DNA from: Naegleria gruberi
Taxonomy: Eukaryota
Assembly: GCA_000004985.1 (NCBI GenBank)
Contig: GG738892.1
Strand: one strand, 5' to 3'
DNA: 64,000 nt
The notes below the pieces were generated by a model. The model saw only the letters and a program-made list of their open reading frames with translations, did not search any database and was not told the DNA's origin. The translations under genes and the position numbers were made by a program. Positions 18,629 to 50,582 of the stretch are shown one piece after another (the stretch's first letter is position 1; the number at the start of each line of letters is the position of its first letter).

Positions 18629-20847
18629 TTATGTAAGATTCTTTTTGAATATAGCTGCATCATCTTCTCTACTGTCCAGCAAACCTAGTAGGTTTGAAAT
18701 TTTGGCGAATATTGATGAAACTGAAAATGATCTACCACTTCTCGGTGTGGAAGGGCTGCTAGAGAGTTGTGTGAGCTTTTTGAGATTTTCTCGTGATTGT
18801 TGAGCAGCTTTCTTTTCCTCTGCATTCAACTCTTGTTCCTCATATTTGAGTGTGAGATTCTCCATCAGTCTGGAAGTGAGTCTAACACTGAATGAATATT
18901 TGAGAATTATATCAATATCCACATGCTCTGCAGTGTTATAGAGTTTTGTTGTTACTTCAGTCGCATTGGCACCTATAATTTCCTTCTTACTTAATTTCAT
19001 GAGACCAGCCATCAATCTTACCAACCTGTTAAAATTTGAACAATTAATTATCTCAGTTCAATGAAATAAACTTACATTTTCCAACCTTCATTGAGGAAAA
19101 TAGACCATATACGTTGCGAAGATGCAAAAGAGAATCTATTCGTACACAGTGTCATCAATATAGAACTGGCATACATTTCTGGAAGAATGTAATTCTCTTC
19201 TAGATGTTTGTGAATATCTGGAAGTCTCAACTTGATCAATTCTGACACCATGAACATAATCAACCTCAAACGTGGCAACCCCTCTGCAAAAATATCTTTC
19301 AATCCATGTTTTCCATTATTCATTATCTGAACAAAGAACCAAAAAGTGTCCTCCTCATCCTCCAGATTCATCAGTGCAAAACCACAAATAAAAGCCATTC
19401 CTTGACAATATCCTGTCTGCTTATCAAAGTGGCAATAGGCTTTCAAAATTCTAATAAGAGACATTTGACCTGGTCCATCCTTCTCACTGAAAAACTCGTA
19501 CTGTGGATAAGTTCTGTGAACATCTTTTAAAATTTTGTGAACATCGTCTTCCAGAATATCATCGTGCATTGTCAATTTTTTGTACAGACCAGGATACTTG
19601 TTAGAAAGCTCCTCAGACCCTACCATTCTCTTCCAAATAGTTTTGAGCGATTCCTTTGTTGGAATTCCTTCTCTGATTAATTTTCTGAATTGATTTGGAT
19701 TTTTTGTTACATATTCCTTATAGTTGGATGCTATTGATTCGAATAAATGAATTCTCTTACTATCGTGCTTGGATTCAAATATTATTGAGCTATATATTTT
19801 TGGTTGACTTGCATTGGTATTGCTAATCTCATTAACTGAAGGATAGTAATTAACAGCCTCATTCACTTTGAGTACAGATCCATTGCTACTCACTAAAATA
19901 CCATCAGTATCAGAGGATTTTACAGACAAAATATCTGAGCCCTTTAAATCTGATGATGAGTCTTCAAAATATCCATCTTTGACGTTTGAAATAATACCAT
20001 CATCATCATCAATATCACTCGAATATGTTGAGGTATCGTTTTCTATTTCACTATCATCGAAAATTTCTACATTATGCACAGGAGTTTCGGTTGATGAGGT
20101 TGTAGATGATGTTAATGCATGAAAATTGGTATTTACAACAATTCTTCTCGATATTCTTCGTTCTCTAACTTTAATAATTGATTCAGCGTCCAATTTTTCA
20201 CTTGAATTTGCTTGAACTTGTTCCTCCTCAACTTGTTTTACATTCTCTTCCGGTTCTACTATTGATACAGATTTTTCAATGTTTAATTCCGGTTGATTTT
20301 CATGTCTTGTTAATAATACCTCTTCATCGTGATGTTTATCCTCCTCCTCCTCCGATGATGCATTCCCTAAATCCATTACTTGCTCTTCTGTTGCAATTAC
20401 TAACACATTGCTATTAGTATCAACAATAGTTATTGATTTTTCTCCATTAGAATCTTCATCACAAGTAACAACCGATTCTGATTGCACAGTACTCGTACTA
20501 TTATTATTATTACTACACACAATCTTATCCACAACAATCGTACTATCACAATTATTATTATTATTAGTATTACAATCTATAACTTGTTCTTCTCCTCCGA
20601 TCGATAATTCTTCTTTACCATCATCAACAACATGACGATGATCCGATACGTTATTCATGATCATCATCTGCATCACGTTGATCTTCTCATCTTTAGTTTC
20701 ATTCATTTTCTTGTTGATTATTTCCTGTTGTTGATGCTGTTGATGATTATAATTTATCAACAATATCGATGGTGATCCTTCTTCATCACCCGTCGTGGAA
20801 CACGGCAGTGGAGGTTTTTCTGTCATGATTGTTTGATTTGGATCCAT
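18629..20847 (-). CDS. TBC-domain Rab GTPase-activating protein; join(20847..19076, 19025..18629), 50-nt intron 19026..19075 (GTAAGT..AACAG)
   Basis: Long low-complexity N-terminus (poly-N, acidic) then Rab-GAP TBC domain with Arg finger IxxDxxR (ILKDVHRTYP) and Gln finger YxQ (GYCQGMAF). Splice aaaat|GTAAGT .. AACAG|g restores ATG and continues ..NEGWKM-LVRLMAGLMKL.. in the frame of the downstream 131-aa ORF. Confidence 0.8.
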
Positions 20848-21661: not shown

Positions 21662-23821
21662 TCATTGTAAATGTTTTTGATATTTGGACACAGATTCCCA
21701 TTGTCTATAATTGGAAGTTTCTTGCAATCTTTTAAAAGTGTCCAACATGTTCAAAACCAGGTCAAATCCAACAACTTGCCATAACTTGTCAAATTCAATT
21801 TGTGATTTTTCTAGTGCTTGTTCTTTCAAATTGTAAAATTCCTTCTTACAACTCGAAGGAAGATTAACTTCAAATTTCGAATAACTCTTAATGAAAGTCT
21901 GATCAATTTCTTCCAATTCCTTCACAGAAACAAACTTTTGTCCCTTCAATTTCATCAGCATCGAATATAATTCAATATTTTCCAAACTAAACTCTTTGGA
22001 ACTATATTCTTTCAACAAGTTGAACAAATCTTCATTTTGTAAAACAACTTCCAATTCATCATTATTCTTCATTGGTTTCTTTCCATATTTCACCTTCTTA
22101 TAAATCTCAATCATGACCGTATTTCCTCCAGTGATGAGCACCATCGAGAGACAAATAATTGTGTTAAATAGTCCTCCAATCGAATCCCTTCCTTCAAATC
22201 CACCAATTATCGTATTTCCAAGAAGAATAATAATGATTACAATGATAATGAATGTTAATGAGAGGATATCGAGACGAACATAGAGTGGATCGTCAAAGAA
22301 TAGGAAATGGAATAGTCCAAGAGTTTTAATTCTCTTTGAATTTGAGATCATATCCAATATTACAAATAAAAGTCCTAGAATTGCACCCACTAGGATAAAC
22401 AATCCAAAAACAAAGGATCTGAATATGTCAGATGCCACTTTTAGTTCATTGAAAAACATGAATAGTCCCATGAGATTAAATAGCAAAGCTAGTAGAAATG
22501 TTAAAAGTACCGAAATAAGAATGCCACTTTTTTCTGAGGCCAATATTTTCATTAATCGTTCTCGTTTCGGATATTTTGTAATGAGAGAATATAAATTTCT
22601 CAAATAGTAGAATCTGACAACTGTTGCTGAATAGATAAAGACACCCCAAATTAACACAAATGTTGAAATATTGTAAACGACACAAACACATAGCCGAGAA
22701 AGATCAGTAAATGTCAACATCAGAATAAAAATGAGAATTGGAGTGTAGGGAAGTGCAATTCTTCTTCTAAGTGATGGTTTTTTAAACAATCCAAATCCAA
22801 ACAATAAAGCAAAGTATCCAAATATGATGAGAAATTGAGGAATTTTCCAATAGTCCTCCACTGGGTTATAGTTTTCTCCAACACATGCTGAGCTTTTACA
22901 CATGTAACATGATGAGGAGAGAAGCAAATTATTGAGAGAGCTCGTATTGAAATTGGTGGTTCCAATCTCAGAAAAAGGAGCTGATAACAAAAGTAAAGGA
23001 AGTTTGCTGTTTACAAGTGTCCAATTTCCTGAAAGAGATGATTTGGAAGTGATTCTCTCAATAATAGAAACATCTATTTCAGAAAAATTAGAATAACCTG
23101 TCAATAATCTAATGAATTGTGCATCTGACTCGTCAGGTAGATTGTCACATGAAGCCGTCTTCTCAACATGAAACAAATCAGTTTCACTCTCTATAGAAAC
23201 CGTTCTATTCGTATAAACCTCATACGGAATCAGTGGAATTGGCAAAAAATTCCCACTTTCCATCTTTTTCAAAGAACCAAATCCATTATTCCTATTATAA
23301 AATCTAACAAAGAAAGAAAAGGCATATGGTTCCATAAGGACAGCATCATACCTTTCCAAAAAGTAATTTCTATCAAGACAGATATCAAATGAAGGATAAA
23401 TGTTGTAAATGGTGCTTGATGAGTTGGAGAGAGGGGGAAATTCAGATGCTTGAATGGAAACATTGAAATAGTTAAAGGTGGAAGTTAAATATTGGGTGTG
23501 AAAAGTGGTGGCACCAATCGAGATTGGATTTGTTTTTAGCCAATTCATCACCAATTGTCTATTCACATCATGATTGGGGGAGGTGACATGTTGATTTTCT
23601 ATAAAGTCAACCAATTTACTTCCATTCTTCTTGAAAATGAAGAGTGTAAGAAAGGTTTTCACACCAATAATTTCATCGAATGAATTGACTTTTGAAAGAT
23701 GTTGTTTCGAATACAAAAGTTCCAATGGAATATTGGAAAAGGCATGAGCAAGATGTTGCATTGAAAAGCTCATGATTGCCACAAAGATGACGAGAAGGAG
23801 AAGAGAGAGGGAGCTTTTCAT
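21662..23821 (-). CDS. seven-transmembrane receptor with large N-terminal ectodomain and C-terminal RGS domain (GPCR-RGS fusion)
   Basis: Track ORF starts on TTG; the first ATG is at 23821 (MKSSLSLLLLVIFVAIMSFS, signal peptide). ~330-aa N-glycosylation-rich ectodomain, seven hydrophobic helices between ~aa 340-600, then an RGS box (..KEYSSKEFSLENIELYSMLMKLKGQ..EIDQTFIKSYSKFEVNL..). Confidence 0.6.
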   Translation of the reverse strand: MKSSLSLLLLVIFVAIMSFSMQHLAHAFSNIPLELLYSKQHLSKVNSFDEIIGVKTFLTLFIFKKNGSKLVDFIENQHVTSPNHDVNRQLVMNWLKTNPISIGATTFHTQYLTSTFNYFNVSIQASEFPPLSNSSSTIYNIYPSFDICLDRNYFLERYDAVLMEPYAFSFFVRFYNRNNGFGSLKKMESGNFLPIPLIPYEVYTNRTVSIESETDLFHVEKTASCDNLPDESDAQFIRLLTGYSNFSEIDVSIIERITSKSSLSGNWTLVNSKLPLLLLSAPFSEIGTTNFNTSSLNNLLLSSSCYMCKSSACVGENYNPVEDYWKIPQFLIIFGYFALLFGFGLFKKPSLRRRIALPYTPILIFILMLTFTDLSRLCVCVVYNISTFVLIWGVFIYSATVVRFYYLRNLYSLITKYPKRERLMKILASEKSGILISVLLTFLLALLFNLMGLFMFFNELKVASDIFRSFVFGLFILVGAILGLLFVILDMISNSKRIKTLGLFHFLFFDDPLYVRLDILSLTFIIIVIIIILLGNTIIGGFEGRDSIGGLFNTIICLSMVLITGGNTVMIEIYKKVKYGKKPMKNNDELEVVLQNEDLFNLLKEYSSKEFSLENIELYSMLMKLKGQKFVSVKELEEIDQTFIKSYSKFEVNLPSSCKKEFYNLKEQALEKSQIEFDKLWQVVGFDLVLNMLDTFKRLQETSNYRQWESVSKYQKHLQ

Positions 23822-25686: not shown

Positions 25687-26274
25687 TTACATGATACAAC
25701 ACTTCCTTTGCTTTTTAACAGAAGTTGTGGAGCTCTTTTTCTTTTCTATAGATTTCTTTCTAAGCATTGAATTAGTTTCTCTAATAATTTCTTCGAAACA
25801 TTCATTAATGTTCTGACCTGTTTTGGCTGATGTTTCGAAAAAGTGTTTAATCTGTAATGATTCTGCAAGATTTTTGCCTTGTGTGTTAGAGACTTGTCTT
25901 TCAGATGTCAAATCACACTTATTTCCAACCAGTACGAATGGAATTGTTTCAGTATTCTTTGCTCTCTTTACTTGTTCGACGAATATTCTAATCTCATCCA
26001 AACTTTTTCTGTTGGTAACATCATAAACAAGAATGAAACCATCACGTTGTCTCATGTAGACATCTCTGAGTGAGTAGAATTCCTCCTGACCAGCTGTATC
26101 AAGAATATCGACAAAGAATGTTTCTCCATCAACAATTTCTTCTTTCATGTATGAATCTTCAATTGTTGGATCGTAGAATTGTTCCGTGTTGAATTTGTTT
26201 TCAATGTGTCTGATGGTAATACTTGATTTACCTGTGGCACCTCCTCCAACAATTGCAATACTTAATTCTGGCAT
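25687..26274 (-). CDS. Ras-family small GTPase (Ras/Rap-like) with CAAX box
   Basis: G1 VGGGATGKS, effector loop YDPTIEDSY (Ras-type), G3 DTAGQEE, G4 GNKCD, G5 ETSAK, C-terminal polybasic stretch + CCIM prenylation motif; single exon. Confidence 0.85.
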   Translation of the reverse strand: MPELSIAIVGGGATGKSSITIRHIENKFNTEQFYDPTIEDSYMKEEIVDGETFFVDILDTAGQEEFYSLRDVYMRQRDGFILVYDVTNRKSLDEIRIFVEQVKRAKNTETIPFVLVGNKCDLTSERQVSNTQGKNLAESLQIKHFFETSAKTGQNINECFEEIIRETNSMLRKKSIEKKKSSTTSVKKQRKCCIM

Positions 26275-26519: not shown

Positions 26520-29149
26520 TTATTGGTGCAAGACTCTTGGCTTGAATCGAACCATGAGTGGAGTTGATGGTTCAACAGCTATGGCATGTCTTTCAATGAT
26601 TGGTGTTCGTTGCATTTCATCGGATAGGCTCATTTCATAATTCCATACCAAGTTGGCAGCATAATCAATCATTTGAGATTCAGCGAGTTTGTATCCAATC
26701 TATAATATCATTGTAAATTAAACTTCAAGTTTCAATAACTTACACATCTACGACCACCAATAAAGAATGGTACAAATTCAAATCTATTATTCAAAGAATT
26801 ATCCTCTTTGATTCTCTTGTTGTACTCGGTAAATCTGTCAGGACGAAATTCATCAGCATCTTCTCCCCAAATCTTCTTGTCATAATTATTCAAACCGTGG
26901 AATGTTAAAACTTGAAGGTTCTTTGGAAGGAGAATACCATCTTCCAAAACTATATCTTTTACAGTTTTTCTCAAATTTGCTGGGACTGGATTTTCCTTGG
27001 AGAGCAATAGTAACGTAGAAGATGCAGAATAGGCACGGTCTTTTTGTGTTATTTTTAACGTTCCTTGGCCGTACCTTGACCGCACCTCTTTTGTGTGTCT
27101 ATTTTTATTTCTTTTTGTGTTTCTTCCATCTCAACCTAGAAACGAGAAAAGACACAAAAAAAGGAACGGAANNNNNNNNNNNNNNNNNNNNNNNNNNNNN
27201 NNNNNNNNNNNNNNNNNNNNNTANAGCAATTGCTCCAAATCAATACTTAATGTTTAAACAAGAAGGAAAATTATACATTGGATGTATTCAATCACATACA
27301 AAAGATACAGTTAAATTTGGAAAGGTGTGGATTGTTACAAATGATTATCACCAAGTATGTCAATTCAGAAAATTAAATAGAGTGAAATCTTCCAATTTAA
27401 ATGTTGATTGGAAAGATATCAATGCTAGATGCCAAGTAGTTTACATTGATTCCAAGTTTTACTTGAATCAATTTATGTTAATCATGAATTATTATAAATT
27501 TTAAAAATTTTGAAATTCTTTTACAATAAAAAAAATTAAAATAGAAATAATAATTTATTTATTCGCTAGTTGTTCAACCCTTTCAGGTAAAAAATTAAGT
27601 TTACGTAGTAAAGGACTCATTCTATAATAGTACGATTAATTTAAAATTCATATTGGTTATTTATTGTTAAATAAGTGTTATTTGTACTTTTATAGAAAAT
27701 TAGCAAGGATTTCAACGGTGGAAATGACTTATAAAAATTTTAAAAGTGTCCATGCCTTGTTTGCAAACCTATTCCCGTGCCTATTTTCTGCCGTACCTGG
27801 GTCGTTTCTTAAAAATAAGTCACCAAACCTTCCCTGTTCCTTGCCAATTCTATTTTTATTACACACCGTACCTTTTCCATGCCTCGCCATTCCTGTTGCG
27901 CTCCAAGGCTTGCAAACGTAAAGTTTCATTCATGGCCATTTTCAAATATTCAAAATTATTATCAATATCTTTCAAAGTCAAATTGAGAGAGGATGAAGAG
28001 TCACGTGTTTCGAAGGAGGATGAGTTGACAAAGTCTTGAATTTCTTCAAAGACCTTTTGTTGGTATTGAGGATGTTTTGCCAAGAAGAAAATAAGCCAAC
28101 TTGAACTTATGCCTGTTGTTCGTGAACCAGCCAATAGAACAATATGAGTATTAGATACAACTTCATCCAAGCTCAATTTACCATACTCTGGAGATTCATA
28201 CTTTAAAAGTTGAGTAATGAAATTATCTCTATCCACATCAATTGAGGCCTGACCAGTATTTTCAATATTCTCTACCAATCTTTCCTTTTCTCTCAACACT
28301 AAATTCTTAATGTACTCTGGCCATGTACGGAATAATTCAGAAGAATCTGTGACATCCTTCCACAACCAAGCTGGAATTATTCTTCCCAAGGTGATAATCA
28401 CCGTTTTTGGAATCATCAAGACCATTTGAGCGGCCAGAAAGTTCCTTCTGGATAGCTCTGGTAATTCTTCCTTGTCATCCAACACAATTCGAATCCAATC
28501 CAAATGCTATTCTTCCAATCACATCTAGTGTTGCATTATTGAGTAATCTAAATACGTTGATTTCATTCTTTTGATTGTTTTCAACGTAGGTCAGTACATT
28601 CTTTACAATATCATTAATTGGAGTCATGTAGTTTGCAAGTTTGGAATCTGTAAAGCTAACTGAAGATATGGATCTGTATCTCTTCCAAGATTCTCCTCCT
28701 CTCGATGCAAAAACATTGTTGGTTGGTCCACAAGGTTGAATTTCCAAAAACTTTTCCTCATCCTTTTCAAAATATTTTGTTTTAGTGATGGCAATTTCCT
28801 TGTAATGATCCAATTTGCATGTGTGAAAGATTGTCTTGTCTCCTACTGTAATTCTCCAGTAGGGACCAAATTCATTATAGTTGTGATATTGCTTTTTATC
28901 ATTCCAGAAAAAGTCATTCTTGTGAAAGAGGATAAACAATAGTTTGAAGGGATAGTTTCGTCCAGGTATGTGAGATACTCTTTGGACCTCCTTTCTATGT
29001 TTGTACAAGGTAACAAGAATGTACGTAACCATCAATGCTAGAAATGAAGAGAGGATCATGACCCCTGTACCACTCATCATGTTTATGCCAGGTAACGTTA
29101 CTGAACGAAAAACAAACTGAACTAGTGTTTCAATATTGCCCGTAACCAT
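26520..29149 (-). CDS. cytochrome P450 monooxygenase, multi-exon, model incomplete (assembly gap and an apparent frame break)
   Basis: Exons on minus strand: 29149..~28497 (membrane anchor MMSGTGVMILSSFLALMVTYIL, ..DVIGRIAFGLD); ~28503..~27900 (I-helix LLAGSRTTGISSSW, K-helix NETLRL); 27085..26753 (..FRPDRFT..FVPFFIGGRRC heme-Cys motif), 54-nt intron 26699..26752 (GTAAGT..TATAG), last exon 26698..26520 (IGYKLAESQM..stop). The first two exon ORFs are out of frame in a 28-nt overlap with no intron possible, and the 50-N gap lies between ETLR and the heme exon. Confidence 0.6.
27172..27221. other. assembly gap (run of 50 N, plus a single n at 27224)
   Basis: Literal n characters in the sequence; sits inside the P450 gene. 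Confidence 0.95.
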
Positions 29150-32683: not shown

Positions 32684-35600
32684 TCAAGTTACTTCTTGGA
32701 CGAGTTGTTGGGCAGTTAGGCGAGCTTGAGGAAGGAATTTGAGAAGACGAGTCATGATATTGAGGAGTTTGTTTAACAATGCTTGATTGTGGGTATTGCT
32801 GTAGTGATCTGTGATTGCTTTGGTCATTTCTTGGAAGCTGAATAGGTAATAATTCGAATAATTTATCAGACCATTAATTAGAAATATTGAAAATGAAACA
32901 TACCATTGTTCTTCAGAGTGAATGAGTTTGGAACAAATTGAAGTAGAAGTATCCAAAGTTAATAATTGATACAATGTCACTCCAAGTGAATACATGTCAG
33001 TGGCAAATCCATAAGGTTGATTCAATAGTAATTCTGGTGAAATGTAGCAAAGAGAACCAGCATAGGTATTTTTGGTAGTGTGTGCATTCTCTTTGGCAAT
33101 ACCAAAATCTCCCAAAACAACCTCAATCAAATTCGAGTCAATATCCCTTCTTCTGATAAAGATGTTTTGAGGTTTAATGTCTCGGTGCATGACTTGTTGG
33201 GAATGCACATAGTTAAGAGCTTGGGTGGTTTGAGAAATGATTTTCCAAATAATTGGCAGTGGAATAGTTGTGGCTGATTTGATGGATTCACTAATGATGG
33301 ACATGACATCTCCCTTATACAGTTCCATGACAATGCAAAACATGGAAGAATGCTCGGTATCGACTTGGAAAGTGTCATAAATCTTTACCACATTCTGGTG
33401 ATCCAATTGCTTGACAAGATTGGCTTCATTTTCAGCATCTTGTGTTGGTTTCTGAATTGAATTTTTACCTGTAGCGATGGTTTTGATTGCCACATTTGGT
33501 TCCTCTGGTGTATTCAACACTTGGCATTCAAAAATGATACCAAATCCTCCCTCTCCAATAATTCGAATAATTTTGTATCGATCATCAAGAGTCATTCCCA
33601 AATATTGTTCATATCTTCCATTGCCTGCTCTTTGTGGAAGAATTGAATCGACAGTATTCTTGACTCTCTTCAATTTAATCAGGTTGAGTTCATCATCCAA
33701 TAATTGTAAATCCTTCATGTCCACAACATCCACAAATTCCTCAAAATCGGGATCATAGTATTGCAATTCGTAACTACCTCGAATTCCACATCTGAGCTTG
33801 GTTTTTTTCACAAAATCTTGAACACTCTCAGAATAATTGACAACCATTTTGAATCTCTTACGATACAGATTCAACATGTTATCTATATATTCCACTTCAA
33901 ACTTGTAACAGAGATAGGTTTCGGATTTGTTAAGGAGCTTTCGTGCCCAAATAATCATGTCTGAATTTTCAGTTGTTTCTGCAACAGAGGCCAAATCCAT
34001 TCCATTCTTTTTAACATCCACATCAGCTCCCTTCTCAACTAGGATGAAAGCCAATTCTTGTTGATTCGTCTCTACAGCAAAAGTGAGAGGAGTTCCATTA
34101 TTGATCAATTGGCTGAGACCTGTTTTTCCATTACTGTTCGATTTGGCAGGAGCTTGCTCAGCTTCATTTCCATGATTCAATCGAGCATTTAATAACTTTG
34201 GAAACATTTCAATGAGTGTTACAACGCTTTTGGTTGATCTCTTTCTGAGTGCATATAGAATAAGTGAAGGATTCGAATAGTGAGATTCTTGATATCTAAT
34301 ATCACTAATGGTTCTTCTGGTGGCAAGCTCTGGTTCTTTTTGAACAAGGTATTTCAAAGCACTTGTCATGCCATAATCAATTGCTATAAAGCAAGCCTTT
34401 GATAGAACCTCCACATTGAAATTCTTGTCATCCGTAATCATTGCATTGATGAATAGTTCAACACCTGGATACTTAGAGTTGACAATACAATAATCAATTG
34501 GTCTCAGTCCTCTAAAGCTCTCAAAGCAAAGCTCCTTATTTTTCCTAGCAATGATTTCGACTACAGGCCAATACTTGTTATCGATCGCGTAGAGGAGTAG
34601 ATTCATGTCAACTGGTAATTTCTCATTACTTTTTTGAATATTGTCAATCCGTGTCAAGTGGCAATAATCTATCATTTCTTGATTCTTTGTTCTGAGACTT
34701 TCAGCAGCAATGTCTTTGCCTTTTCTGAGGGCATTGACATTAGCTCCTTTGGAAATTAATTCTTTAAGCTCTTCAAATTGGTTGAGTTGAATGGCTACAA
34801 ACATAGCCTCGTCCAATGACATTCCACCACTCTTATCATAGACAGTAAGGTAATATCTATAATAATTTCCACATTTAACAAGATATTTGATGATTTGATT
34901 TTCATATTCCACAAGCTTTGACTTGTCAACCTTGTTGGTCTTGTTTAAAAGATCATTGACCTTTCCAGTAAATTTGTTCAATCCATCCGTTGATGTTTTT
35001 TCTTTCTGGAATATCTTTTCCACCTCTAGTAAATTTTCCTTATATCTTAGAATAGTATCATTGATATTCTTCCACAATCTGCAATATTCAAACATTTTGC
35101 TACAATAAGTTTCATTGATATTGTAAAAGTATGAAAGAACCATACAAATATTAACATTAGGATATTTCAACGAAACAGTTTTGAGCATATTTCTTGTAAC
35201 AGCTATTGGATGACTTCCAAGATCTGGAATGTTCGAAACATTTGGAAGAGTCTCCTTCGAAAGGCAAATTAACACAATATGAGAAGCACAAATCTTTTTC
35301 AGGATATCTCTTTCCAACTTGTAGGTAGAAAGCTTTGAAACCTCATAGTGAAGTGCTCCAATTAATTTGTAATAGCTGTAGAAATACTTGATGAGAGCAA
35401 ATTGCTTTTCTTCTTGATATAAATAGGTCAATTGATTGATGAGAGCATTCGTATTGTCGAATATTGAACTCATTGCTTCAAATCCAATACCTTTGAGCCG
35501 ATATTTCAAATCAGCAAGTTGATACATATTTTGGGAATTATGCAAACAATCTCTCAATGTTAAAATATTCTGTCTATGCTTGTGAATTAAACACTTGACT

Positions 35601-38600
35601 TTCATGTGAACAAGAGCAGGGAAGCCAACAAATGAGGGTGAAATTGAGTAAATCTCCTTTTGCCAAGTGATTGAATGGGATTGAACAAAAAATTGTTTCG
35701 AAACCAAACTCAGAATGAATAAACTTGTTGGTGTGGTAAAGAGACAAATTCTGCCAATGACCTTATCAGGAAGCCACTTATTAAAAGTTGGGAATCTCCG
35801 TTTGATACTTTCTGAAAGTGCCATATACACATTTCCCATACTCAACAAGTGTTTCAATGGTAAATTGTGCATTATAAATGTAGAATAGAGTGGAACTGCT
35901 TTTTCAATAATTCCAAGAACTATATTATCCGTTTGTTGACCAGGATCTTCTTCGTCATCCTCCTCACGAAACAGCTTCAATTTTTGCTCCAGCTCAACTC
36001 GTAATGACATCTTATTGGACTTTGGTTTTGAGAGTGGAATTGGTGATTTGGATTTTGGAGTACTAGCTTTCGAAAACAAAGTAGGGGGAGGTGGTGGAGG
36101 GATTGCCTTTTCTAGTGGAGTAGGTTTGATAAAGAGTTTGACATCTATTGGTTGGTTAATATTTGGAGGTGGAAGAGGTATTTCCACTTGTTTTGTTGTG
36201 GTGTTCTCTTCCTTCTTTATGGTAGAGGTAGCAGTGGAAATTAGCTTAAATGAACTGTCTGTGTTAGTCTTTTCGATAAAGATACTCGTTGTCAGGAACA
36301 AGTAGTACAATTCATTTCTATCGATGAGTTCATTATCCATCGTCTTGTTTCTGTATTGAATGAGGTAGGGCTGATTGGCCGAGTAGACCTCCATCTTGCC
36401 AGCAATAATTCTCTTTGCTGTTGGTTCCTTGCTCTTAACTGGTCTAATCAGTAGTGGATTGAATATTGGAACTGGAGGAATAATACCACGTTTGTAAACA
36501 ATTACCTTATTATCGAATGGATTGTCTAATTTTTCAACAGATCGTAATGGCAAATTCTTGACATGTTCTGGCAATTCTTTTGGAATCAATTCCAGCAAAT
36601 ATTTGACTTCCTCCTGACGATGCTTTGTAAGCATTGACTCTTTCATAACTGTTATAATAGTATAGAGGAAGGTACTGAATTGATTATCCTTGAATCCAAA
36701 TCTCTTCTTGATATCCATGAAGAATGTTCCATGATAACGTTCCATAATTGAATCAATCCAAGAAGATGCTCTGTTCCAATCAAATTGTTTAGACAAGTTT
36801 AAAACTGTCTTTTTAAGAATTTCGAATAATCTGTTATGATTCTTGGAGAAAACATAGGCCAAATAATCAACATATCTCACATTGTGAAAGTATAAACCAG
36901 AACCAGCCTCTGACTTTTTGATGAACATTTTCAATTCCATCAAGTCATTAGTAATGGAGGTGGAATTTTTCAATACATAGGTCCCAGTAACCTTTGCATC
37001 AATGCCATGATTGAAAATGATCATGGTTTGGTCAATAATTGCCATTAGAGTTTTCATTGGCAACATGAATGGCTCGAAGAGTGAGGGAACAACCTCGAAA
37101 AGTCTGTCAAATTTTGGATCAGAAACAATTTTTGATTCATAGTCATGAGTTTCGTCCAATATTTGTTTCAGATATTTTGCAGATGATGATTTTAACAGGG
37201 TGTCTGCAATTTTAAATTCCAAAGGTTCTAAATCTGTACCTCTAATATCGTGACTAATAATTTCAAGAGATTTTTCCGAGAGCATATCAATAAATTTCAA
37301 AACCTTGACGCTTTTGATCGCATCCAAATCTGGATATCTCAAAAATTCAAAATCTGTACTATTCTGTTGTAAAAATTCTTTCAAATTCACATCCTTGACA
37401 AAGTTCTGCTTGTTTAAAACCTTGCTCAACCTCATGTAGAGATGATTCTTTTCATAGACGCTGGTAATATTCTCGTGAAGTCGTTCGACATAGTTCAGGA
37501 ATGTTTCCAACTCATTACTCTCATCCTCAATTAGTTTTTTAAATGTTTTCCCTCTGTGTGAATGCAGTACTGATGGAAACATGTCACTGGAGAGAAAGGT
37601 CACATTATGAACAAAGGTCTGAACGTACGGATCATTGGTGAGGAAATTTCTCAAATAATCAGGTGAAATATATTTGGAGTTTAAATAGTGATTATTATTT
37701 GTCTCTCTTTTGTTATTTCCATTAGAAAAATTAGAGCTACCCGAAGGAGGAGTATTAGTTGGTGAAGGTGGAGGAGTAGATTTGGGAGATTCTTCTAAGT
37801 TATCAAAGACTGAGGCAAACGAACCTGCTAATGATAAATTTCCAGATGAATTTTCCCTCTTCATTTCCGTTTCAGATGAGAAGAAATCATGAGCATGAAT
37901 CCACAATTGAAATAATTCCTTTTGATTATTTTCCAATAAATGATTCAACACTTGTAATATTTGATAACTGAAAAAGTAAGATTCTTGTCCAGAGTTTGGA
38001 AAGGATTTGTCATTATATTCATAAATATCCAATCCTGTTGTATCCTTTTGTTTTTTCAAATAGAATTTGAATCCTTGTAAATTTCTCTGAATAAAGTTTA
38101 GAATAAACTCATGGAAATAATTACTTACAATGATGGTCTTTTTAATTTCCATAGTTGGATATCGAATTAATTTCTTTTGGAGAATTGAATTTGGAGAAGC
38201 CATATTCGAATCAAAATTAGGTGTCTGATCCGAAGTGAAAGGATTTACCTTGATAATCTTATTTGAAAAGTTCTCCACCTGTTGTCTATTTGGTTTACTA
38301 TTTTGACTTGCAGATAAATATTTAAATCTTCCATTAGTTTCTGATTGACTAGAATTGGGCACTGTTTGTTTCTGTTGAAAATGTTGAGATTGAACATTCT
38401 TCGCCTGATAAACTGTGGAACGAATAAAATCAGCCAATTTACTCTTTCCACTCGACTCTTTACTCCAACCAAAATCTTTAGGTTTCGCACTAAATGAACT
38501 AATCTCACAAATTAATGGAATTTGTAAGACATTAGAAGATTGAGACATGTTTTCCAAAAAGATTCCCTTCCTCACAGTGGGCTGATCCCTCATTAGTGAA

Positions 38601-38956
38601 ATTAAATCAGTCAATATAATTCCTCCAAACAAGTAGGCATCCTCAGTATTGAAATATTGTGAACGTTCGGGAATGACTTGAATTTGTATGGAAATCACAT
38701 CACGGGATGGATTTTCTATATCGAGTGTGGTAGAAATAGAGGTTGTATTGGTTTTTAATTGATCGGCAGAAAAACTTTGTTTATGTTGTAGGTGTCGTGA
38801 GGTGTAGATGGAAATTTCCACTTGAGTGGGAGAATAGAGTTGAGTATTGATGGTGTTGAGAAGGTTGGAATCAAATTCCTTGATGCTCGTAGAGATGTTG
38901 ATGAACCCGAGCTGTAGTTCCAGGCTTGTATTTGCTGCCTGTGTTTGTGTGAGCAT
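32684..38956 (-). CDS. giant (~2090 aa) multidomain protein: large uncharacterised N-terminal/central region, ankyrin repeats, C-terminal Ser/Thr protein kinase domain; join(38956..32904, 32837..32684), 66-nt in-frame intron 32838..32903 (GTATGT..TTCAG)
   Basis: Kinase subdomains present: GEGGFGIIFEC, AIKTI, HRDIKPQNIFI, DFGIAK, GSLCYISPE. Ankyrin-like repeats sit upstream (..GANVNALRKGKD.., ..TPLTFAVETNQQELAFILVEKGADVDV..). Pro-rich linkers (PPPPPTLF, PPPSPTNTPP). The intron is AT-rich and stop-free so the ORF track reads through it; removing it restores subdomain XI (..SEEQ-C-FQEMTKAI..). Confidence 0.8.
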   Translation of the reverse strand: MLTQTQAANTSLELQLGFINISTSIKEFDSNLLNTINTQLYSPTQVEISIYTSRHLQHKQSFSADQLKTNTTSISTTLDIENPSRDVISIQIQVIPERSQYFNTEDAYLFGGIILTDLISLMRDQPTVRKGIFLENMSQSSNVLQIPLICEISSFSAKPKDFGWSKESSGKSKLADFIRSTVYQAKNVQSQHFQQKQTVPNSSQSETNGRFKYLSASQNSKPNRQQVENFSNKIIKVNPFTSDQTPNFDSNMASPNSILQKKLIRYPTMEIKKTIIVSNYFHEFILNFIQRNLQGFKFYLKKQKDTTGLDIYEYNDKSFPNSGQESYFFSYQILQVLNHLLENNQKELFQLWIHAHDFFSSETEMKRENSSGNLSLAGSFASVFDNLEESPKSTPPPSPTNTPPSGSSNFSNGNNKRETNNNHYLNSKYISPDYLRNFLTNDPYVQTFVHNVTFLSSDMFPSVLHSHRGKTFKKLIEDESNELETFLNYVERLHENITSVYEKNHLYMRLSKVLNKQNFVKDVNLKEFLQQNSTDFEFLRYPDLDAIKSVKVLKFIDMLSEKSLEIISHDIRGTDLEPLEFKIADTLLKSSSAKYLKQILDETHDYESKIVSDPKFDRLFEVVPSLFEPFMLPMKTLMAIIDQTMIIFNHGIDAKVTGTYVLKNSTSITNDLMELKMFIKKSEAGSGLYFHNVRYVDYLAYVFSKNHNRLFEILKKTVLNLSKQFDWNRASSWIDSIMERYHGTFFMDIKKRFGFKDNQFSTFLYTIITVMKESMLTKHRQEEVKYLLELIPKELPEHVKNLPLRSVEKLDNPFDNKVIVYKRGIIPPVPIFNPLLIRPVKSKEPTAKRIIAGKMEVYSANQPYLIQYRNKTMDNELIDRNELYYLFLTTSIFIEKTNTDSSFKLISTATSTIKKEENTTTKQVEIPLPPPNINQPIDVKLFIKPTPLEKAIPPPPPPTLFSKASTPKSKSPIPLSKPKSNKMSLRVELEQKLKLFREEDDEEDPGQQTDNIVLGIIEKAVPLYSTFIMHNLPLKHLLSMGNVYMALSESIKRRFPTFNKWLPDKVIGRICLFTTPTSLFILSLVSKQFFVQSHSITWQKEIYSISPSFVGFPALVHMKVKCLIHKHRQNILTLRDCLHNSQNMYQLADLKYRLKGIGFEAMSSIFDNTNALINQLTYLYQEEKQFALIKYFYSYYKLIGALHYEVSKLSTYKLERDILKKICASHIVLICLSKETLPNVSNIPDLGSHPIAVTRNMLKTVSLKYPNVNICMVLSYFYNINETYCSKMFEYCRLWKNINDTILRYKENLLEVEKIFQKEKTSTDGLNKFTGKVNDLLNKTNKVDKSKLVEYENQIIKYLVKCGNYYRYYLTVYDKSGGMSLDEAMFVAIQLNQFEELKELISKGANVNALRKGKDIAAESLRTKNQEMIDYCHLTRIDNIQKSNEKLPVDMNLLLYAIDNKYWPVVEIIARKNKELCFESFRGLRPIDYCIVNSKYPGVELFINAMITDDKNFNVEVLSKACFIAIDYGMTSALKYLVQKEPELATRRTISDIRYQESHYSNPSLILYALRKRSTKSVVTLIEMFPKLLNARLNHGNEAEQAPAKSNSNGKTGLSQLINNGTPLTFAVETNQQELAFILVEKGADVDVKKNGMDLASVAETTENSDMIIWARKLLNKSETYLCYKFEVEYIDNMLNLYRKRFKMVVNYSESVQDFVKKTKLRCGIRGSYELQYYDPDFEEFVDVVDMKDLQLLDDELNLIKLKRVKNTVDSILPQRAGNGRYEQYLGMTLDDRYKIIRIIGEGGFGIIFECQVLNTPEEPNVAIKTIATGKNSIQKPTQDAENEANLVKQLDHQNVVKIYDTFQVDTEHSSMFCIVMELYKGDVMSIISESIKSATTIPLPIIWKIISQTTQALNYVHSQQVMHRDIKPQNIFIRRRDIDSNLIEVVLGDFGIAKENAHTTKNTYAGSLCYISPELLLNQPYGFATDMYSLGVTLYQLLTLDTSTSICSKLIHSEEQWYVSFSIFLINGLINYSNYYLFSFQEMTKAITDHYSNTHNQALLNKLLNIMTRLLKFLPQARLTAQQLVQEVT

Positions 38957-40728: not shown

Positions 40729-42555
40729 TTAAACAAAAATTTGTTGAAGGGCAGGTAATTTTCTAAGCATATTTCTAACTTGGTTACCATAGGGGTTTGG
40801 CCAGTATGCACAGAGCCATGTTAAATTTTTCAAAGCAAGTATGGATTTTGCTCCTTCATCAGTCATTCCAATGCCATTAATGTGGAGTTTTGTGAGACGA
40901 GTTAGTCGACTAATAGCCTTAACTCCTTCATCTCCAATTTCATAATCGCTGTAAATGCGCAGTTCAGTTAATTGGCTCATCTGACCAATATATTTAGCTC
41001 CTACAGTTCGAATATTATTAGCGCCAATCGAAAGAGCAGTTAAATTGGGTAATTGACTGATAAATCGAGCCCCTTCTGAACAAATATTATTATAGTCAAT
41101 CTTGAGAATTAGTAAATGTTTCATCTCGCTTATCTTTTCGGCACCTGTTGTTCCAATTTCGTTGTTTTCAATATCAAGTTCAGTTAAATGCTTTAACTCT
41201 GTAATTGATTGAATTCCAGTTTTGTTTATGGAATTTCGTGGGACAATTAATGATGTCAAATGTGTCATTTCACAGATTGATTTGAATTCATTTTGAGTAA
41301 AATTTTTCGAAATGTCAAGTTTTTTCAAATGTTTCATTCTTTCAAGTAAATTGGGATCCAAATAATAATTATAGTGTAGGTACAGTGATTTCAATTGATC
41401 TAATTTGGTGATGGAAACCAATCCATTCGTGGTAATTTTGTTATATCCTAAATTAAGGTATGTTAAATTTGTAATTTCACTACTTTCTACCATTACATTC
41501 TCAATTTGATTATATTGCATATCCAGAAAGGTTAATTGTTTCATTTTGATAATATACTCCGCACCAACATCACCAATTCTATTTCCATTAATGCAAAGTG
41601 CAGTTAATTTTTCAAGTCTACTAATATATAAGGCACCTTTAGCATGAATATGATTATTTCCAATGGAAAGGCATGTCAATTGTTTCATTTCAGCAACATT
41701 TTGTGCTCCTTTAGATCCGAGATTATTTCTATTAATATTGAGCGATTTTAAATATTGTAATTTTTCACTAATCGGCTTGCAAGAGGTAATACCACAACCA
41801 CTAACATTGAGATATATCAAATGATTTAAATTTTCTGCAATTTCCTCAATTCCCAAATCTCCAATTCTATTCTTTTTAATATTAAGATGTGTTAAATTTT
41901 TCATTTTACAAATTGATTCTACACTTTCAATTCTATTATTTCTAATATTCAACAATGTTAAACCTTTCAAATCACTCAACAATTCCAACCCTTCATCTTT
42001 TATATGATTATCCCCTAAATTTAATAATTCCAAATTTTTAAATTGAGATAGTATTTTAACTTGTTCATTTCCAATATCACTTGAAGCAATGTCCAATCTT
42101 TTCAAATGTTTCATTTTACAAATTGTATTCTCTACACTTTCGAATAAAGTTTCATTACCATGATCAACATGTCTTGATTGTTTGAAAAATTGCATAAATC
42201 GTAATCCAACAAGTTTTAAATTGAAAATACCCTCCATATGATGATGTTTCCAACTCGAATAAATCCAAACTCTATTAAAATAACCTTTTCTCATGACCAG
42301 GGAAAGTTTCGCCTTCTTGTTTGTAATCACCCGATCCCACTGTTGCGAAATTAATGTACAAACTGTTTTTACAAATTGATAATCAAGATATTGAACAATT
42401 TCTGAACAAATATCATCCGAAAACAATTCATCTAAACTTTGATAATATTAAAATGATTTTTATAAATTTTGCATGTAAATAGAGATATGTAAATATTACT
42501 TACCACTCGATAATCTAAATTTCAATGATTCCGATAATGATACTTGTTCTGGCAT
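40729..42555 (-). CDS. F-box-like / RNI-type leucine-rich-repeat protein; join(42555..42504, 42431..40729), 72-nt intron 42432..42503 (GTAAGT..TTTAG)
   Basis: About 17 tandem ~24-28-aa LRRs of ribonuclease-inhibitor type (L..L.I..N.IG..GA..I..). Short 5' exon (MPEQVSLSESLKFRLSS) splices in phase 1 to ..DELFSDDICSEIVQYLDYQFVKTVCTLISQQWDRVI (F-box-like), the same N-terminal motif as the paralogue at 49310. Confidence 0.75.
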
Positions 42556-49209: not shown

Positions 49210-49309
49210 TCTTTGTCTACAACCATCCATCACTTTGATTTAAATGTCAAAATAGTTTACAACACAAAATTTCAAGTGATGAACTTTGTGTCAAGAACAA
49301 CCTAAAAAA

Positions 49310-50524
49310 ATGCATCAACAAGATAAATACACCACCCCTTCAACGTTGCTAGAGAAATCCAATGCTGTATTTTCGGATGATATTTGTTATGAAATATTGT
49401 CATTTCTTGACCATAATTTCAAATCTTCATCACTTTGGAATTATGCATCAATTTCAAAACAATTTATGAAAATAATTGGAGGACGATTGGAATTGAACAT
49501 GTACTATTCAGAAATGACTTCTCAAAAGATTGAGTTAATGAGGAGAAGTATCCTGTCTCAAAATGTTGTGAGTTTGAGAACTGAAAGAGTTTCGGATTTT
49601 CCAAAATTTTGCACAATTCTTAAAAGCATGAATCAATTGAGGAGAGTTGAAATTTGTGGTCATCACTTGAAAGGAGCAACAATTAAACCATTGACCATGT
49701 TGAAACAAGTTACAGATCTTGTACTAAATGAGAATGGAATTAGTGAACTGGGTGTGATTTACATTTCTGGAATGATTCAATTAAAATCTCTCGATATTAG
49801 GAATAATGAAATTAATGTTGAGAGTGCCAAATATATCACTCAACTGCGTAAACTACAATCTTTGAGTGTTTCAGTTCGTAACAATGAAGTTCTGACATTA
49901 ATAGGTGGAATGAAAAATTTGACTCGATTGAGGATTGATAGAAATAACATAGGACATGATGGAGCCAAAATAATCAGTAGAATGAAGCAATTGACCAGTC
50001 TGCATATTTCCAATAATTCACTGCTATCTGAAGGAGCAAAATTGATAAGTAGTATGAAGAAACTAACCGAATTGGTCATTACCAACAATAATATTGGAAT
50101 AATGGGAACCTTTTATATTAGTGAGCTGAAAGAATTAACCAAACTTTGTATTGGTTTTAATTGTATTGGAGATGAAGGAGCCAAACATATTAGTGGGTTG
50201 AAAAAGTTGGTTGACCTTAATGTCACTTGGAATGAGATTGGCCTTGCTGGTGCCAAGTCAATTGGAGAATTGAGAAATTTAACTCATCTTTCTGCGGGTG
50301 AGAATGATATTCCAGCAGAAGGAGCTAAAGCAATAAGTCAATTAAGGAATTTGACCTATCTTGATATTGTAGGCAATCCAATAGGTGATGAAGGAGGTTT
50401 AGCAATTAGTGAATTGACAAAATTGACTACACTCTTCATTGGCGTCTATTCCTTGAGTAATTGCTCAATTGACCAACTCAAGAAAATGAAGCAGTTAAGA
50501 GTATCAGATCTTCTTGATGATTAG
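49310..50524 (+). CDS. F-box-like / RNI-type leucine-rich-repeat protein (paralogue of 40729..42555)
   Basis: Track ORF starts on TTG at 49286, and the first ATG is at 49310. N-terminus ..SNAVFSDDICYEILSFLDHNF (the same F-box-like motif as the paralogue), then ~11 RNI-type LRRs (..LDIRNNEINVESAKYITQL.., ..LRIDRNNIGHDGAKIISRM..). Confidence 0.75.
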   Translation: MHQQDKYTTPSTLLEKSNAVFSDDICYEILSFLDHNFKSSSLWNYASISKQFMKIIGGRLELNMYYSEMTSQKIELMRRSILSQNVVSLRTERVSDFPKFCTILKSMNQLRRVEICGHHLKGATIKPLTMLKQVTDLVLNENGISELGVIYISGMIQLKSLDIRNNEINVESAKYITQLRKLQSLSVSVRNNEVLTLIGGMKNLTRLRIDRNNIGHDGAKIISRMKQLTSLHISNNSLLSEGAKLISSMKKLTELVITNNNIGIMGTFYISELKELTKLCIGFNCIGDEGAKHISGLKKLVDLNVTWNEIGLAGAKSIGELRNLTHLSAGENDIPAEGAKAISQLRNLTYLDIVGNPIGDEGGLAISELTKLTTLFIGVYSLSNCSIDQLKKMKQLRVSDLLDD

Positions 50525-50582
50525 TTTCATTGAGATTTCATTTGAATCGAATAATTATAATTTATTTAATTATTAAAAAAAA

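What the first reader, a model, noticed from the sequence alone, without database searches (positions are those of the whole stretch)
21662..23821. Seven-transmembrane receptor fused to a C-terminal RGS domain, with a large N-glycosylation-rich ectodomain
The protein combines a signal peptide, a ~330-aa ectodomain, seven hydrophobic helices and a C-terminal RGS box (FSLENIELYSMLMKL.. motif). A receptor that carries its own GAP for G-alpha is the AtRGS1-type design, a self-regulating G-protein signalling module.

Its ectodomain has no obvious known fold and may bind an unknown ligand.
Basis: partly seen in the sequence, partly recalled or inferred. Interest (0 to 1): 0.5.

Follow-up and report, generated by a model that had tools for sequence, protein, structure and literature searches.

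The report
Amoeba receptor with built-in G-protein brake
This Naegleria gruberi gene encodes a seven-helix membrane receptor that carries its own G-protein off-switch (an RGS domain), a receptor type already described in Naegleria; its outer domain looks like a bacterial nutrient-binding protein, which had not been noted and hints at a small-molecule ligand.

Summary
Window 21662-23821 (minus strand) is an uninterrupted 719-aa ORF, identical to Naegleria gruberi NAEGRDRAFT_71707 (UniProt D2VRU5, 'RGS domain-containing protein'). It has a signal peptide, a ~300-aa ectodomain, seven hydrophobic cores conserved across the family, and a C-terminal RGS box.

On its own the RGS box misses Pfam's threshold (19.6 vs 23.9 bits). 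A 46-member family profile hits only RGS proteins in the PDB (E=4.7e-9), and the RGS4 residues that contact G-alpha are conserved.

The class is known. Bosch et al. 2022 described 28 '7TM RGS' proteins in N. fowleri and showed GAP activity for three of their RGS domains.

The best reading is a receptor-GAP with a divergent Venus-flytrap-like sensor. It belongs to a paralog family seen so far only in Naegleria and Willaertia. The ligand, the G-alpha partner and how ligand binding couples to GAP activity are inferred, not shown.

Interest is modest: a known kind, with a plausibly new ectodomain variant.

The parts
21662..23821 (-). Complete single-exon CDS (719 aa plus stop codon) of N. gruberi NAEGRDRAFT_71707, a 7TM-RGS protein
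   Evidence: ORF listing; exact-sequence match to XP_002673269.1 / D2VRU5
23741..23821 (-). Signal-peptide-like hydrophobic N-terminus, aa 1-27 (MKSSLSLLLLVIFVAIMSFSMQHLAHA)
   Evidence: Hydropathy of the sequence and of the family. The cleavage site is inferred from the AHA|F motif; no predictor was run.
22844..23740 (-). Ectodomain, aa 28-326: a divergent type-II periplasmic-binding-protein-like (NMT1/SsuA-like, 'Venus flytrap') alpha/beta domain with 7 N-x-S/T sequons
22883..22909 (-). Juxtamembrane cysteine motif C-x2-C-x4-C, aa 305-313, conserved in the family
   Evidence: C308 and C313 are at least 90% conserved, and C148 and C225 are also conserved. Disulfide pairing was not determined.
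22103..22843 (-). Seven-transmembrane region, aa 327-573 (TM1 about 327-348, TM2 358-378, TM3 380-402, TM4 432-456, TM5 466-491, TM6 516-540, TM7 548-573)
   Evidence: Single-sequence hydropathy. Seven hydrophobic cores are conserved in 46 relatives. The low-confidence AF2 model shows seven long helices. No Pfam 7TM family is hit and the 7TM profile hits no PDB sequence.
22268..22318 (-). Third intracellular loop motif GLFHFLFFDDPLYVRLD, aa 502-518, nearly invariant in the family; function unknown
   Evidence: D511 is invariant, and G502, P512, R516 and D518 are at least 90% conserved in 46 sequences.
21665..22054 (-). Cytoplasmic RGS box, aa about 590-719, with conserved G-alpha-contact residues S612, E614, N615, N653, D694 and R698
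   Evidence: Pfam RGS covers aa 590-695 at 19.6 bits. The family profile against the PDB gives RGS17 at E=4.7e-9, and all hits are RGS proteins. 33 of 46 members hit Pfam RGS.

Best explanation
The gene encodes a plasma-membrane 'receptor-GAP' of the Naegleria 7TM-RGS family. After the signal peptide, a glycosylated, disulfide-containing ectodomain faces outward. It has a divergent type-II solute-binding-protein (Venus-flytrap-like) fold. Seven helices cross the membrane, and a cytoplasmic RGS box accelerates GTP hydrolysis on one or more of the amoeba's many G-alpha subunits.

The most likely mechanism follows AtRGS1 and the N. fowleri 7TM RGS proteins. [quoted passage not shown] Binding of a small solute in the ectodomain cleft changes the 7TM conformation, clustering or trafficking, and so changes GAP access to G-alpha.

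Shown here by computation: the ORF, the topology, RGS homology with intact contact residues, the ectodomain fold class, and a paralog family in Naegleria and Willaertia.

Inferred: GAP activity of this particular protein, the G-alpha partner, ligand binding, and the direction of coupling.
For: Identity and architecture.

RGS: the family profile hits only RGS proteins in the PDB. 33 of 46 members pass or approach Pfam RGS. RGS4 contact residues S85/E87/N88/N128/D163/R167 correspond to S612/E614/N615/N653/D694/R698 and are kept in at least 41 of 45 relatives (at least 43 of 45 for all but S612).

Experimental precedent: N. fowleri has 28 7TM RGS proteins, and the RGS domains of three of them are GAPs for Nf G-alpha2/3/5/7, including self-activating ones (PMC9283941). 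The same 7TM+RGS module occurs in large REJ/EGF/GPS-bearing relatives (P0149). N. gruberi has about 44 G-alpha and 229 RGS proteins (PMC8584482, PMC3971589).

Ectodomain.
Against: This protein alone is below Pfam's RGS threshold.

No 7TM family can be assigned by sequence, and no confident 7TM model was obtained.

No ligand, expression, localisation or GAP data exist for this protein. The four N. fowleri proteins that were cloned are much larger paralogs with different ectodomains; GAP data were obtained for three of them.
Confidence: 0.7

Rival explanations
1. It is a conventional GPCR, that is, a ligand-activated exchange factor for G-alpha. Its C-terminal RGS box only sharpens signal termination, making a self-limiting GEF+GAP module rather than a pure receptor-GAP.
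For: Naegleria has both slow-exchanging and self-activating G-alpha subunits, and both types interact with 7TM RGS domains (PMC9283941). The family has strongly conserved intracellular loops, including R-F-x-Y-L-R-N-L-Y after TM3 and FLFFDDPFYxRxD in ICL3. These could form a G-protein coupling surface.
Against: The 7TM region has no detectable similarity to any GPCR family with known GEF activity. No 7TM-RGS protein has been shown to act as a GEF (my own knowledge of the AtRGS1 literature).
Confidence: 0.15
2. The ectodomain is not a ligand-binding Venus flytrap. It would be a lineage-specific glycoprotein domain for structure or adhesion, and its resemblance to PBP-II proteins would be a remnant or a generic alpha/beta similarity. 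The receptor-GAP part of the reading would still stand.
Confidence: 0.25
3. The RGS box is a non-catalytic RGS-homology scaffold, as in axin or GRKs, and the protein signals without acting as a GAP.
For: The Pfam score is sub-threshold for this sequence. Some RGS domains are known to have lost GAP activity (PMC3971589).
Against: All six main G-alpha-contact residues of RGS4, including the catalytic-support Asn128 equivalent N653, are conserved here and nearly invariant in the family. Related Naegleria 7TM RGS domains are active, canonical GAPs and are sensitive to the switch-I G-to-S mutation.
Confidence: 0.08

Closest known systems
Naegleria fowleri 7TM RGS proteins (Nf 7TM RGS1-4 and 24 others; Bosch, Jeck & Siderovski 2022, PMC9283941)
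   Same: Same genus and the same architecture of 7TM followed by a C-terminal RGS box. The 7TM+RGS module is homologous to that of large GPS/REJ/EGF-bearing relatives. A collinear N. fowleri ortholog exists (CAG4714715.1, about 36% identity). GAP activity on Nf G-alpha subunits was shown for three members.
   Different: The four cloned proteins are 1215 to over 2459 aa, with EGF, lectin and GPS ectodomains. This one is 719 aa with a PBP-II-like ectodomain, which that paper does not mention. Neither this protein nor its ortholog was tested.
Arabidopsis AtRGS1
   Same: The receptor-GAP design: an N-terminal 7TM and a C-terminal RGS box acting on a self-activating G-alpha (as summarised in PMC9283941 and PMC8584482).
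   Different: AtRGS1 has only a short extracellular N-terminus and no sensor ectodomain (my own knowledge). Homology of the two 7TM regions was not tested here. Plants have one copy, whereas Naegleria has a large paralog family.
Class C GPCRs (mGluR, GABA-B, CaSR, taste receptors)
   Same: A bilobed periplasmic-binding-protein-type 'Venus flytrap' ectodomain sits on a 7TM, with a cysteine-containing linker before TM1.
   Different: Class C receptors use the type-I (LIVBP/ANF) PBP fold and act as GEFs without an RGS box (established knowledge). Here the fold matches type II, there is no Pfam 7tm_3 or ANF hit, and the output domain is a GAP.
Bacterial type-II solute-binding proteins of the NMT1/SsuA/NrtA/TauA/PhnD group, and yeast THI5
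   Same: These are the best structural matches to the ectodomain model. The Pfam NMT1/THI5 hit in the homologous subgroup covers the 'I-T-x3-DL-x2-K-x-(V/I)-A-V ... F-E-x-F-D-A' lobe motif.
   Different: There is no significant sequence similarity for this protein itself. The domain is eukaryotic, glycosylated, cysteine-bearing and membrane-anchored, and its second lobe is largely helical in the model.

Membership tests
RGS domain (Pfam PF00615) | Scores above the Pfam gathering threshold | tested here: not met
   This protein scores 19.6 bits against a cutoff of 23.9, E=0.0013, over aa 590-695.
RGS domain (Pfam PF00615) | Family-level homology to bona fide RGS domains | tested here: met
   33 of 46 relatives hit PF00615, best 2.1e-9. 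The family profile against the PDB returns 35 chains, all RGS proteins, best RGS17 at E=4.7e-9.
RGS domain (Pfam PF00615) | Conserved G-alpha switch-contact residues (RGS4 S85, E87, N88, N128, D163, R167) | tested here: met
   The equivalents are S612, E614, N615, N653, D694 and R698, each kept in at least 41 of 45 family members. The RGS4 sequence was recalled from memory; its numbering is self-consistent.
RGS domain (Pfam PF00615) | GAP activity on a G-alpha subunit | not testable with these tools
   GAP activity has been shown only for three paralogous N. fowleri 7TM RGS domains (PMC9283941).
7TM-RGS receptor-GAP architecture (AtRGS1 type / Naegleria 7TM RGS) | Seven transmembrane helices N-terminal to the RGS box, with the RGS box cytoplasmic | tested here: met
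   Seven conserved hydrophobic cores plus a signal peptide. The charge distribution in the loops places the C-terminus inside. No dedicated predictor or confident 3D model was available.
7TM-RGS receptor-GAP architecture (AtRGS1 type / Naegleria 7TM RGS) | Homology of the 7TM+RGS module to the published Naegleria 7TM RGS proteins (GPS/EGF-bearing) | tested here: inconclusive
   The profile matches large proteins over TM5-7 plus RGS or over 7TM plus RGS, for example P0149 (2324 aa; REJ+EGF+GPS+RGS) at E=1.5e-11. The sequences of Nf 7TM RGS1-4 themselves were not available for direct comparison.
7TM-RGS receptor-GAP architecture (AtRGS1 type / Naegleria 7TM RGS) | Sequence homology of the 7TM region to plant RGS1 | not tested
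   No AtRGS1 sequence was available. The 7TM-only database search failed.
Classical GPCR families (Pfam 7tm_1/2/3, Dicty_CAR, Frizzled) and adhesion-GPCR GPS motif | A significant match of the 7TM region or juxtamembrane region to one of these models | tested here: not met
   Only RGS is found at E<=1 for this protein. No 7TM or GPS family is hit in 46 relatives. The 7TM profile against PDB sequences gives nothing at E<=10.
Periplasmic-binding-protein-like II fold (NMT1/THI5-SsuA group) | Bilobed alpha/beta fold matching solved PBP-II structures | tested here: inconclusive
Periplasmic-binding-protein-like II fold (NMT1/THI5-SsuA group) | Sequence match to a PBP-II Pfam family | tested here: not met
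   There is none for this protein or its 25-member subgroup. The match is met only indirectly. Willaertia P0055 scores 24.1 bits against the NMT1 cutoff of 20.5, and 2 of 4 subgroup members match. That subgroup is homologous to ours by hhalign at 96.6%, E=4.9e-10.
Periplasmic-binding-protein-like II fold (NMT1/THI5-SsuA group) | Binds a small solute in the inter-lobe cleft | not testable with these tools
   No coordinates could be inspected and no experimental data exist.

The most novel reading that the evidence does not exclude
This protein represents an undescribed subfamily of receptor-GAPs in which a solute-binding-protein-type (PBP-II) Venus flytrap directly gates a tethered RGS domain. 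It would be the GAP-output mirror image of class C GPCRs. The subfamily has expanded to at least ten paralogs in N. gruberi and is present in N. fowleri, N. lovaniensis and Willaertia. Because the sensor is a soluble, expressible binding-protein fold, it would give the first tractable route to identifying a direct ligand for any 7TM-RGS protein.
Probability: 0.45. Interest if true: 0.55.

Novelty: new variant of a known kind. Interest (0 to 1): 0.35.

Why it matters
7TM-RGS 'receptor-GAPs' are thought to be an ancient way of controlling G proteins without a GEF. What they sense directly is still unclear, even for AtRGS1. A subfamily whose ectodomain is a recognisable solute-binding fold would allow ligand screening on an isolated soluble domain. 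It would also show that the Venus-flytrap-plus-7TM design arose independently with the opposite enzymatic output. The pathogenic N. fowleri has an ortholog, so the family is also a possible drug-target class. If the fold assignment fails, this is simply one more uncharacterised member of a published family.

Tried and rejected
- Single-sequence phmmer of the whole protein and of the RGS region against the PDB gave nothing significant. RGS5 and RGS1 appeared only at E of about 0.5.
- The first AF2 run, full length with a 5-sequence alignment, gave pLDDT 42 and was unusable. A Foldseek search with that model returned noise: TRP channels, and one RGS14 hit at E=4.8.
- The afdb50 fold library was not available.
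- The ectodomain profiles A4 and A5 against PDB sequences found no PBP hit.
- The 7TM-only profile A6 found nothing in the PDB. It also found nothing in the 5.8-billion-protein search, where hydrophobic words evidently swamped the candidate list. The GPCR class and any relation to the AtRGS1 7TM therefore remain open.
- A GPS/adhesion-GPCR reading of the juxtamembrane Cys motif was rejected, because there is no GPS hit in this protein or its subgroup.
- 'N-glycosylation-rich' as a special feature was rejected, because the sequon count equals the compositional expectation.
- A G-alpha gene was sought in the window, and none was found among the ORFs of 150 aa or more that were scanned (41 of 43; the two not scanned lie antisense to scanned ORFs).
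- Bradford 2013 and Anantharaman 2011 could not be read, so earlier mention of this ectodomain type cannot be excluded.

Full report
**What is there**

Window 21662-23821 holds one uninterrupted ORF on the minus strand, with its ATG at 23821 and its stop codon at 21662-21664, giving 719 aa. The protein is identical over its full length to Naegleria gruberi NAEGRDRAFT_71707 (XP_002673269.1, UniProt D2VRU5, named 'RGS domain-containing protein'). The window is therefore N. gruberi nuclear DNA of about 34% GC, and the gene has a single exon.

Neighbouring genes include a TBC RabGAP, an NAD-dependent epimerase-like protein, a Ras-family GTPase, coatomer beta, a P450, a large ankyrin-kinase, and LRR and Sel1 proteins. 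No G-alpha gene was found among the ORFs of 150 aa or more that were scanned (41 of 43).

**Checking the observation**

Kyte-Doolittle analysis gives a hydrophobic N-terminus (aa 1-27, ending AHA|F) and then no hydrophobic stretch until aa 327. Seven stretches follow between aa 327 and 573.

I aligned the protein with 45 relatives. The family-mean hydropathy shows the signal peptide plus exactly seven conserved cores: 327-341, 360-371, 381-401, 432-454, 469-489, 518-538 and 551-568. The Lys/Arg-rich loops are KKPSLRRR after TM1, the loop after TM3, the loop after TM5 and the tail after TM7. They alternate as expected for an N-out, C-in topology, which places the RGS box in the cytoplasm.

No TM predictor was available. 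The full-length AF2 model made with five sequences was poor (pLDDT 42), though it too shows seven long helices in this region.

The ectodomain is about 300 aa (28-326). It has 7 N-x-S/T sequons, but that is what its N/S/T-rich composition predicts (shuffle mean 5.2, p=0.25). Only the N245 sequon recurs in about half of the relatives.

**The RGS box**

For this sequence alone Pfam RGS is sub-threshold (19.6 bits against 23.9, E=0.0013, aa 590-695), and phmmer against the PDB finds nothing.

An exhaustive profile search of 1.84 billion representative proteins found 287 relatives, 67 of them with E<=1e-30. Many are collinear over ectodomain, 7TM and tail.

- Of 46 aligned members, 33 hit Pfam RGS, with the best at 2.1e-9.
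- The family profile hits 35 PDB chains, all of them RGS proteins (RGS17 E=4.7e-9, also RGS1, 2, 4, 5, 8, 10, 16, 18, GAIP and EhRGS-RhoGEF).
- The RGS4 residues that contact the G-alpha switch regions are S85, E87, N88, N128, D163 and R167 (established knowledge from the RGS4-Gi-alpha1 structure). They map to S612, E614, N615, N653, D694 and R698, and each is kept in at least 41 of 45 relatives. The RGS4 sequence was recalled from memory and its numbering was self-consistent.

The RGS box is real and looks GAP-competent.

**What is already known**

Bosch, Jeck and Siderovski (JBC 2022, PMC9283941) reported 28 '7TM RGS' proteins in N. fowleri. They showed that the RGS domains of three of them accelerate GTP hydrolysis on Nf G-alpha2, 3, 5 and 7. 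These include self-activating subunits, and the interaction uses a canonical interface sensitive to the switch-I G-to-S mutation.

The four proteins they cloned are 1215 to over 2459 aa, with EGF, lectin and GPS ectodomains. They are not this 719-aa type.

De Mendoza et al. 2014 (PMC3971589) counted 229 RGS proteins in N. gruberi and noted 7TM-RGS architectures in many bikonts. A review cites about 44 G-alpha subunits in N. gruberi (PMC8584482).

Our profile also matches the TM5-7 plus RGS part of a 2324-aa protein carrying REJ, EGF and GPS domains, which ties this protein to that wider family.

Named relatives come only from N. gruberi, N. lovaniensis, N. fowleri and Willaertia magna. N. gruberi has at least nine further paralogs among the hits that were looked up. 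The collinear N. fowleri ortholog is about 36% identical.

**The ectodomain**

I modelled aa 28-326 with a 58-sequence alignment, which gave pLDDT 86 and pTM 0.87.

A bridge exists, however. A subgroup of family members (Willaertia P0055, and P0058, P0064, P0050) keeps the classic lobe motif 'I-T-x3-DL-x2-K-(R/K)-(V/I)-A-V ... F-E-x-F-D-A'. P0055 passes Pfam's NMT1/THI5 threshold (22.3 to 24.1 bits against 20.5), and two of the four members match. The subgroup profile aligns to our subgroup over 180 columns at 96.6% probability, E=4.9e-10. Twenty column-shuffled controls and a reversed control score no higher than 18.4, against 74 for the real comparison.

Structure and sequence thus converge on the same group, NMT1/SsuA-like PBP-II. 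I put this fold assignment at about 0.75.

The order of secondary-structure elements fits. Two long strands (aa 50-63 and 192-204) bracket a beta-alpha-beta middle segment, as expected for the two crossovers of a PBP-II. The C-terminal part is mostly helical, so one lobe is divergent.

Conserved cysteines are C148, C225 and the juxtamembrane C-x2-C-x4-C at aa 305-313, with another at the top of TM3. These suggest disulfides, perhaps tethering the sensor to the helical bundle, which is inference.

**The 7TM region**

The 7TM region matches no Pfam 7TM family and no solved protein by profile. A database search with the 7TM alone failed technically. Its class, and any homology to the AtRGS1 7TM, remain open.

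It carries strongly conserved intracellular motifs, notably G-x3-FLFFDDPFYxRxD in the third loop. I know of no counterpart for this motif.

**Mechanism**

The best-supported model is a receptor-GAP. The tethered, catalytically competent RGS box keeps one or more G-alpha subunits switched off. Solute binding to the flytrap-like ectodomain alters 7TM conformation, clustering or endocytosis, and thereby changes GAP access, as proposed for AtRGS1 and for the N. fowleri proteins.

Only the architecture, the RGS homology with conserved residues, and the fold class are shown here. GAP activity of this protein, its partner, its ligand and the sign of coupling are inferred.

The rivals are:

- a GEF-type GPCR with a built-in terminator (about 0.15);
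- a non-ligand-binding, degenerate ectodomain (about 0.25; this concerns only the sensor);
- a non-catalytic RGS scaffold (about 0.08).

**Verdict**

The protein is an uncharacterised member of a published family. The PBP-II-like ectodomain subfamily appears undescribed in the literature I could search. Two relevant papers could not be read.

I rate it a new variant of a known kind, with interest 0.35.

Noticed in passing
window 22268-22318 (-), aa 502-518: The third intracellular loop of the 7TM-RGS family carries an almost invariant motif G-x3-FLFFDDPFYxRxD (here GLFHFLFFDDPLYVRLD). D511 is invariant, and P512, R516 and D518 are at least 90% conserved in 46 sequences. I know of no counterpart for it. 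It could be a G-protein or RGS docking surface.
   Followed up: partly
window 27859-28503 and 28475-29149 (-): A cytochrome P450 is split over two overlapping ORFs, covering Pfam p450 positions 212-335 and 6-161. This suggests an intron or a frameshift.
   Followed up: no
window 19072-20847 (-): The immediate downstream neighbour is a TBC/RabGAP protein with a long N/Q/E/S-rich, low-complexity N-terminal half. A Ras-family small GTPase lies at 25687-26274 (-).
   Followed up: no
window 32684-38956 (-): A 2090-aa single-ORF protein has ankyrin repeats and a C-terminal protein kinase domain. The N-terminal 1500 aa or so have no Pfam match.
   Followed up: no
window 50583-52229 (+): A Sel1-repeat protein with 11 repeats lies in the stretch with the strongest GC skew of the window (+0.256 at 50001-52000). 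LRR proteins flank it at 40729-42426 (-) and 49286-50524 (+).
   Followed up: no
relatives P0149 (2324 aa, metagenome) and P0055 (Willaertia magna KAL9643344.1): The same 7TM+RGS module is attached to very different ectodomains. P0149 has beta-helix + EGF + REJ/PKD + GPS, and P0055 has an NMT1/THI5-like PBP. This indicates ectodomain shuffling on a conserved receptor-GAP chassis in heterolobosean amoebae.
   Followed up: partly
N. fowleri gene models P0006 (331 aa), P0008 (722 aa), P0002 (444 aa): The N. fowleri ortholog is annotated inconsistently between assemblies. One model is a 331-aa C-terminal fragment. Another is a 722-aa model that lacks the conserved 'VVRFYYLRNLYS' segment after TM3, probably because of a wrongly predicted intron.
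   Followed up: no
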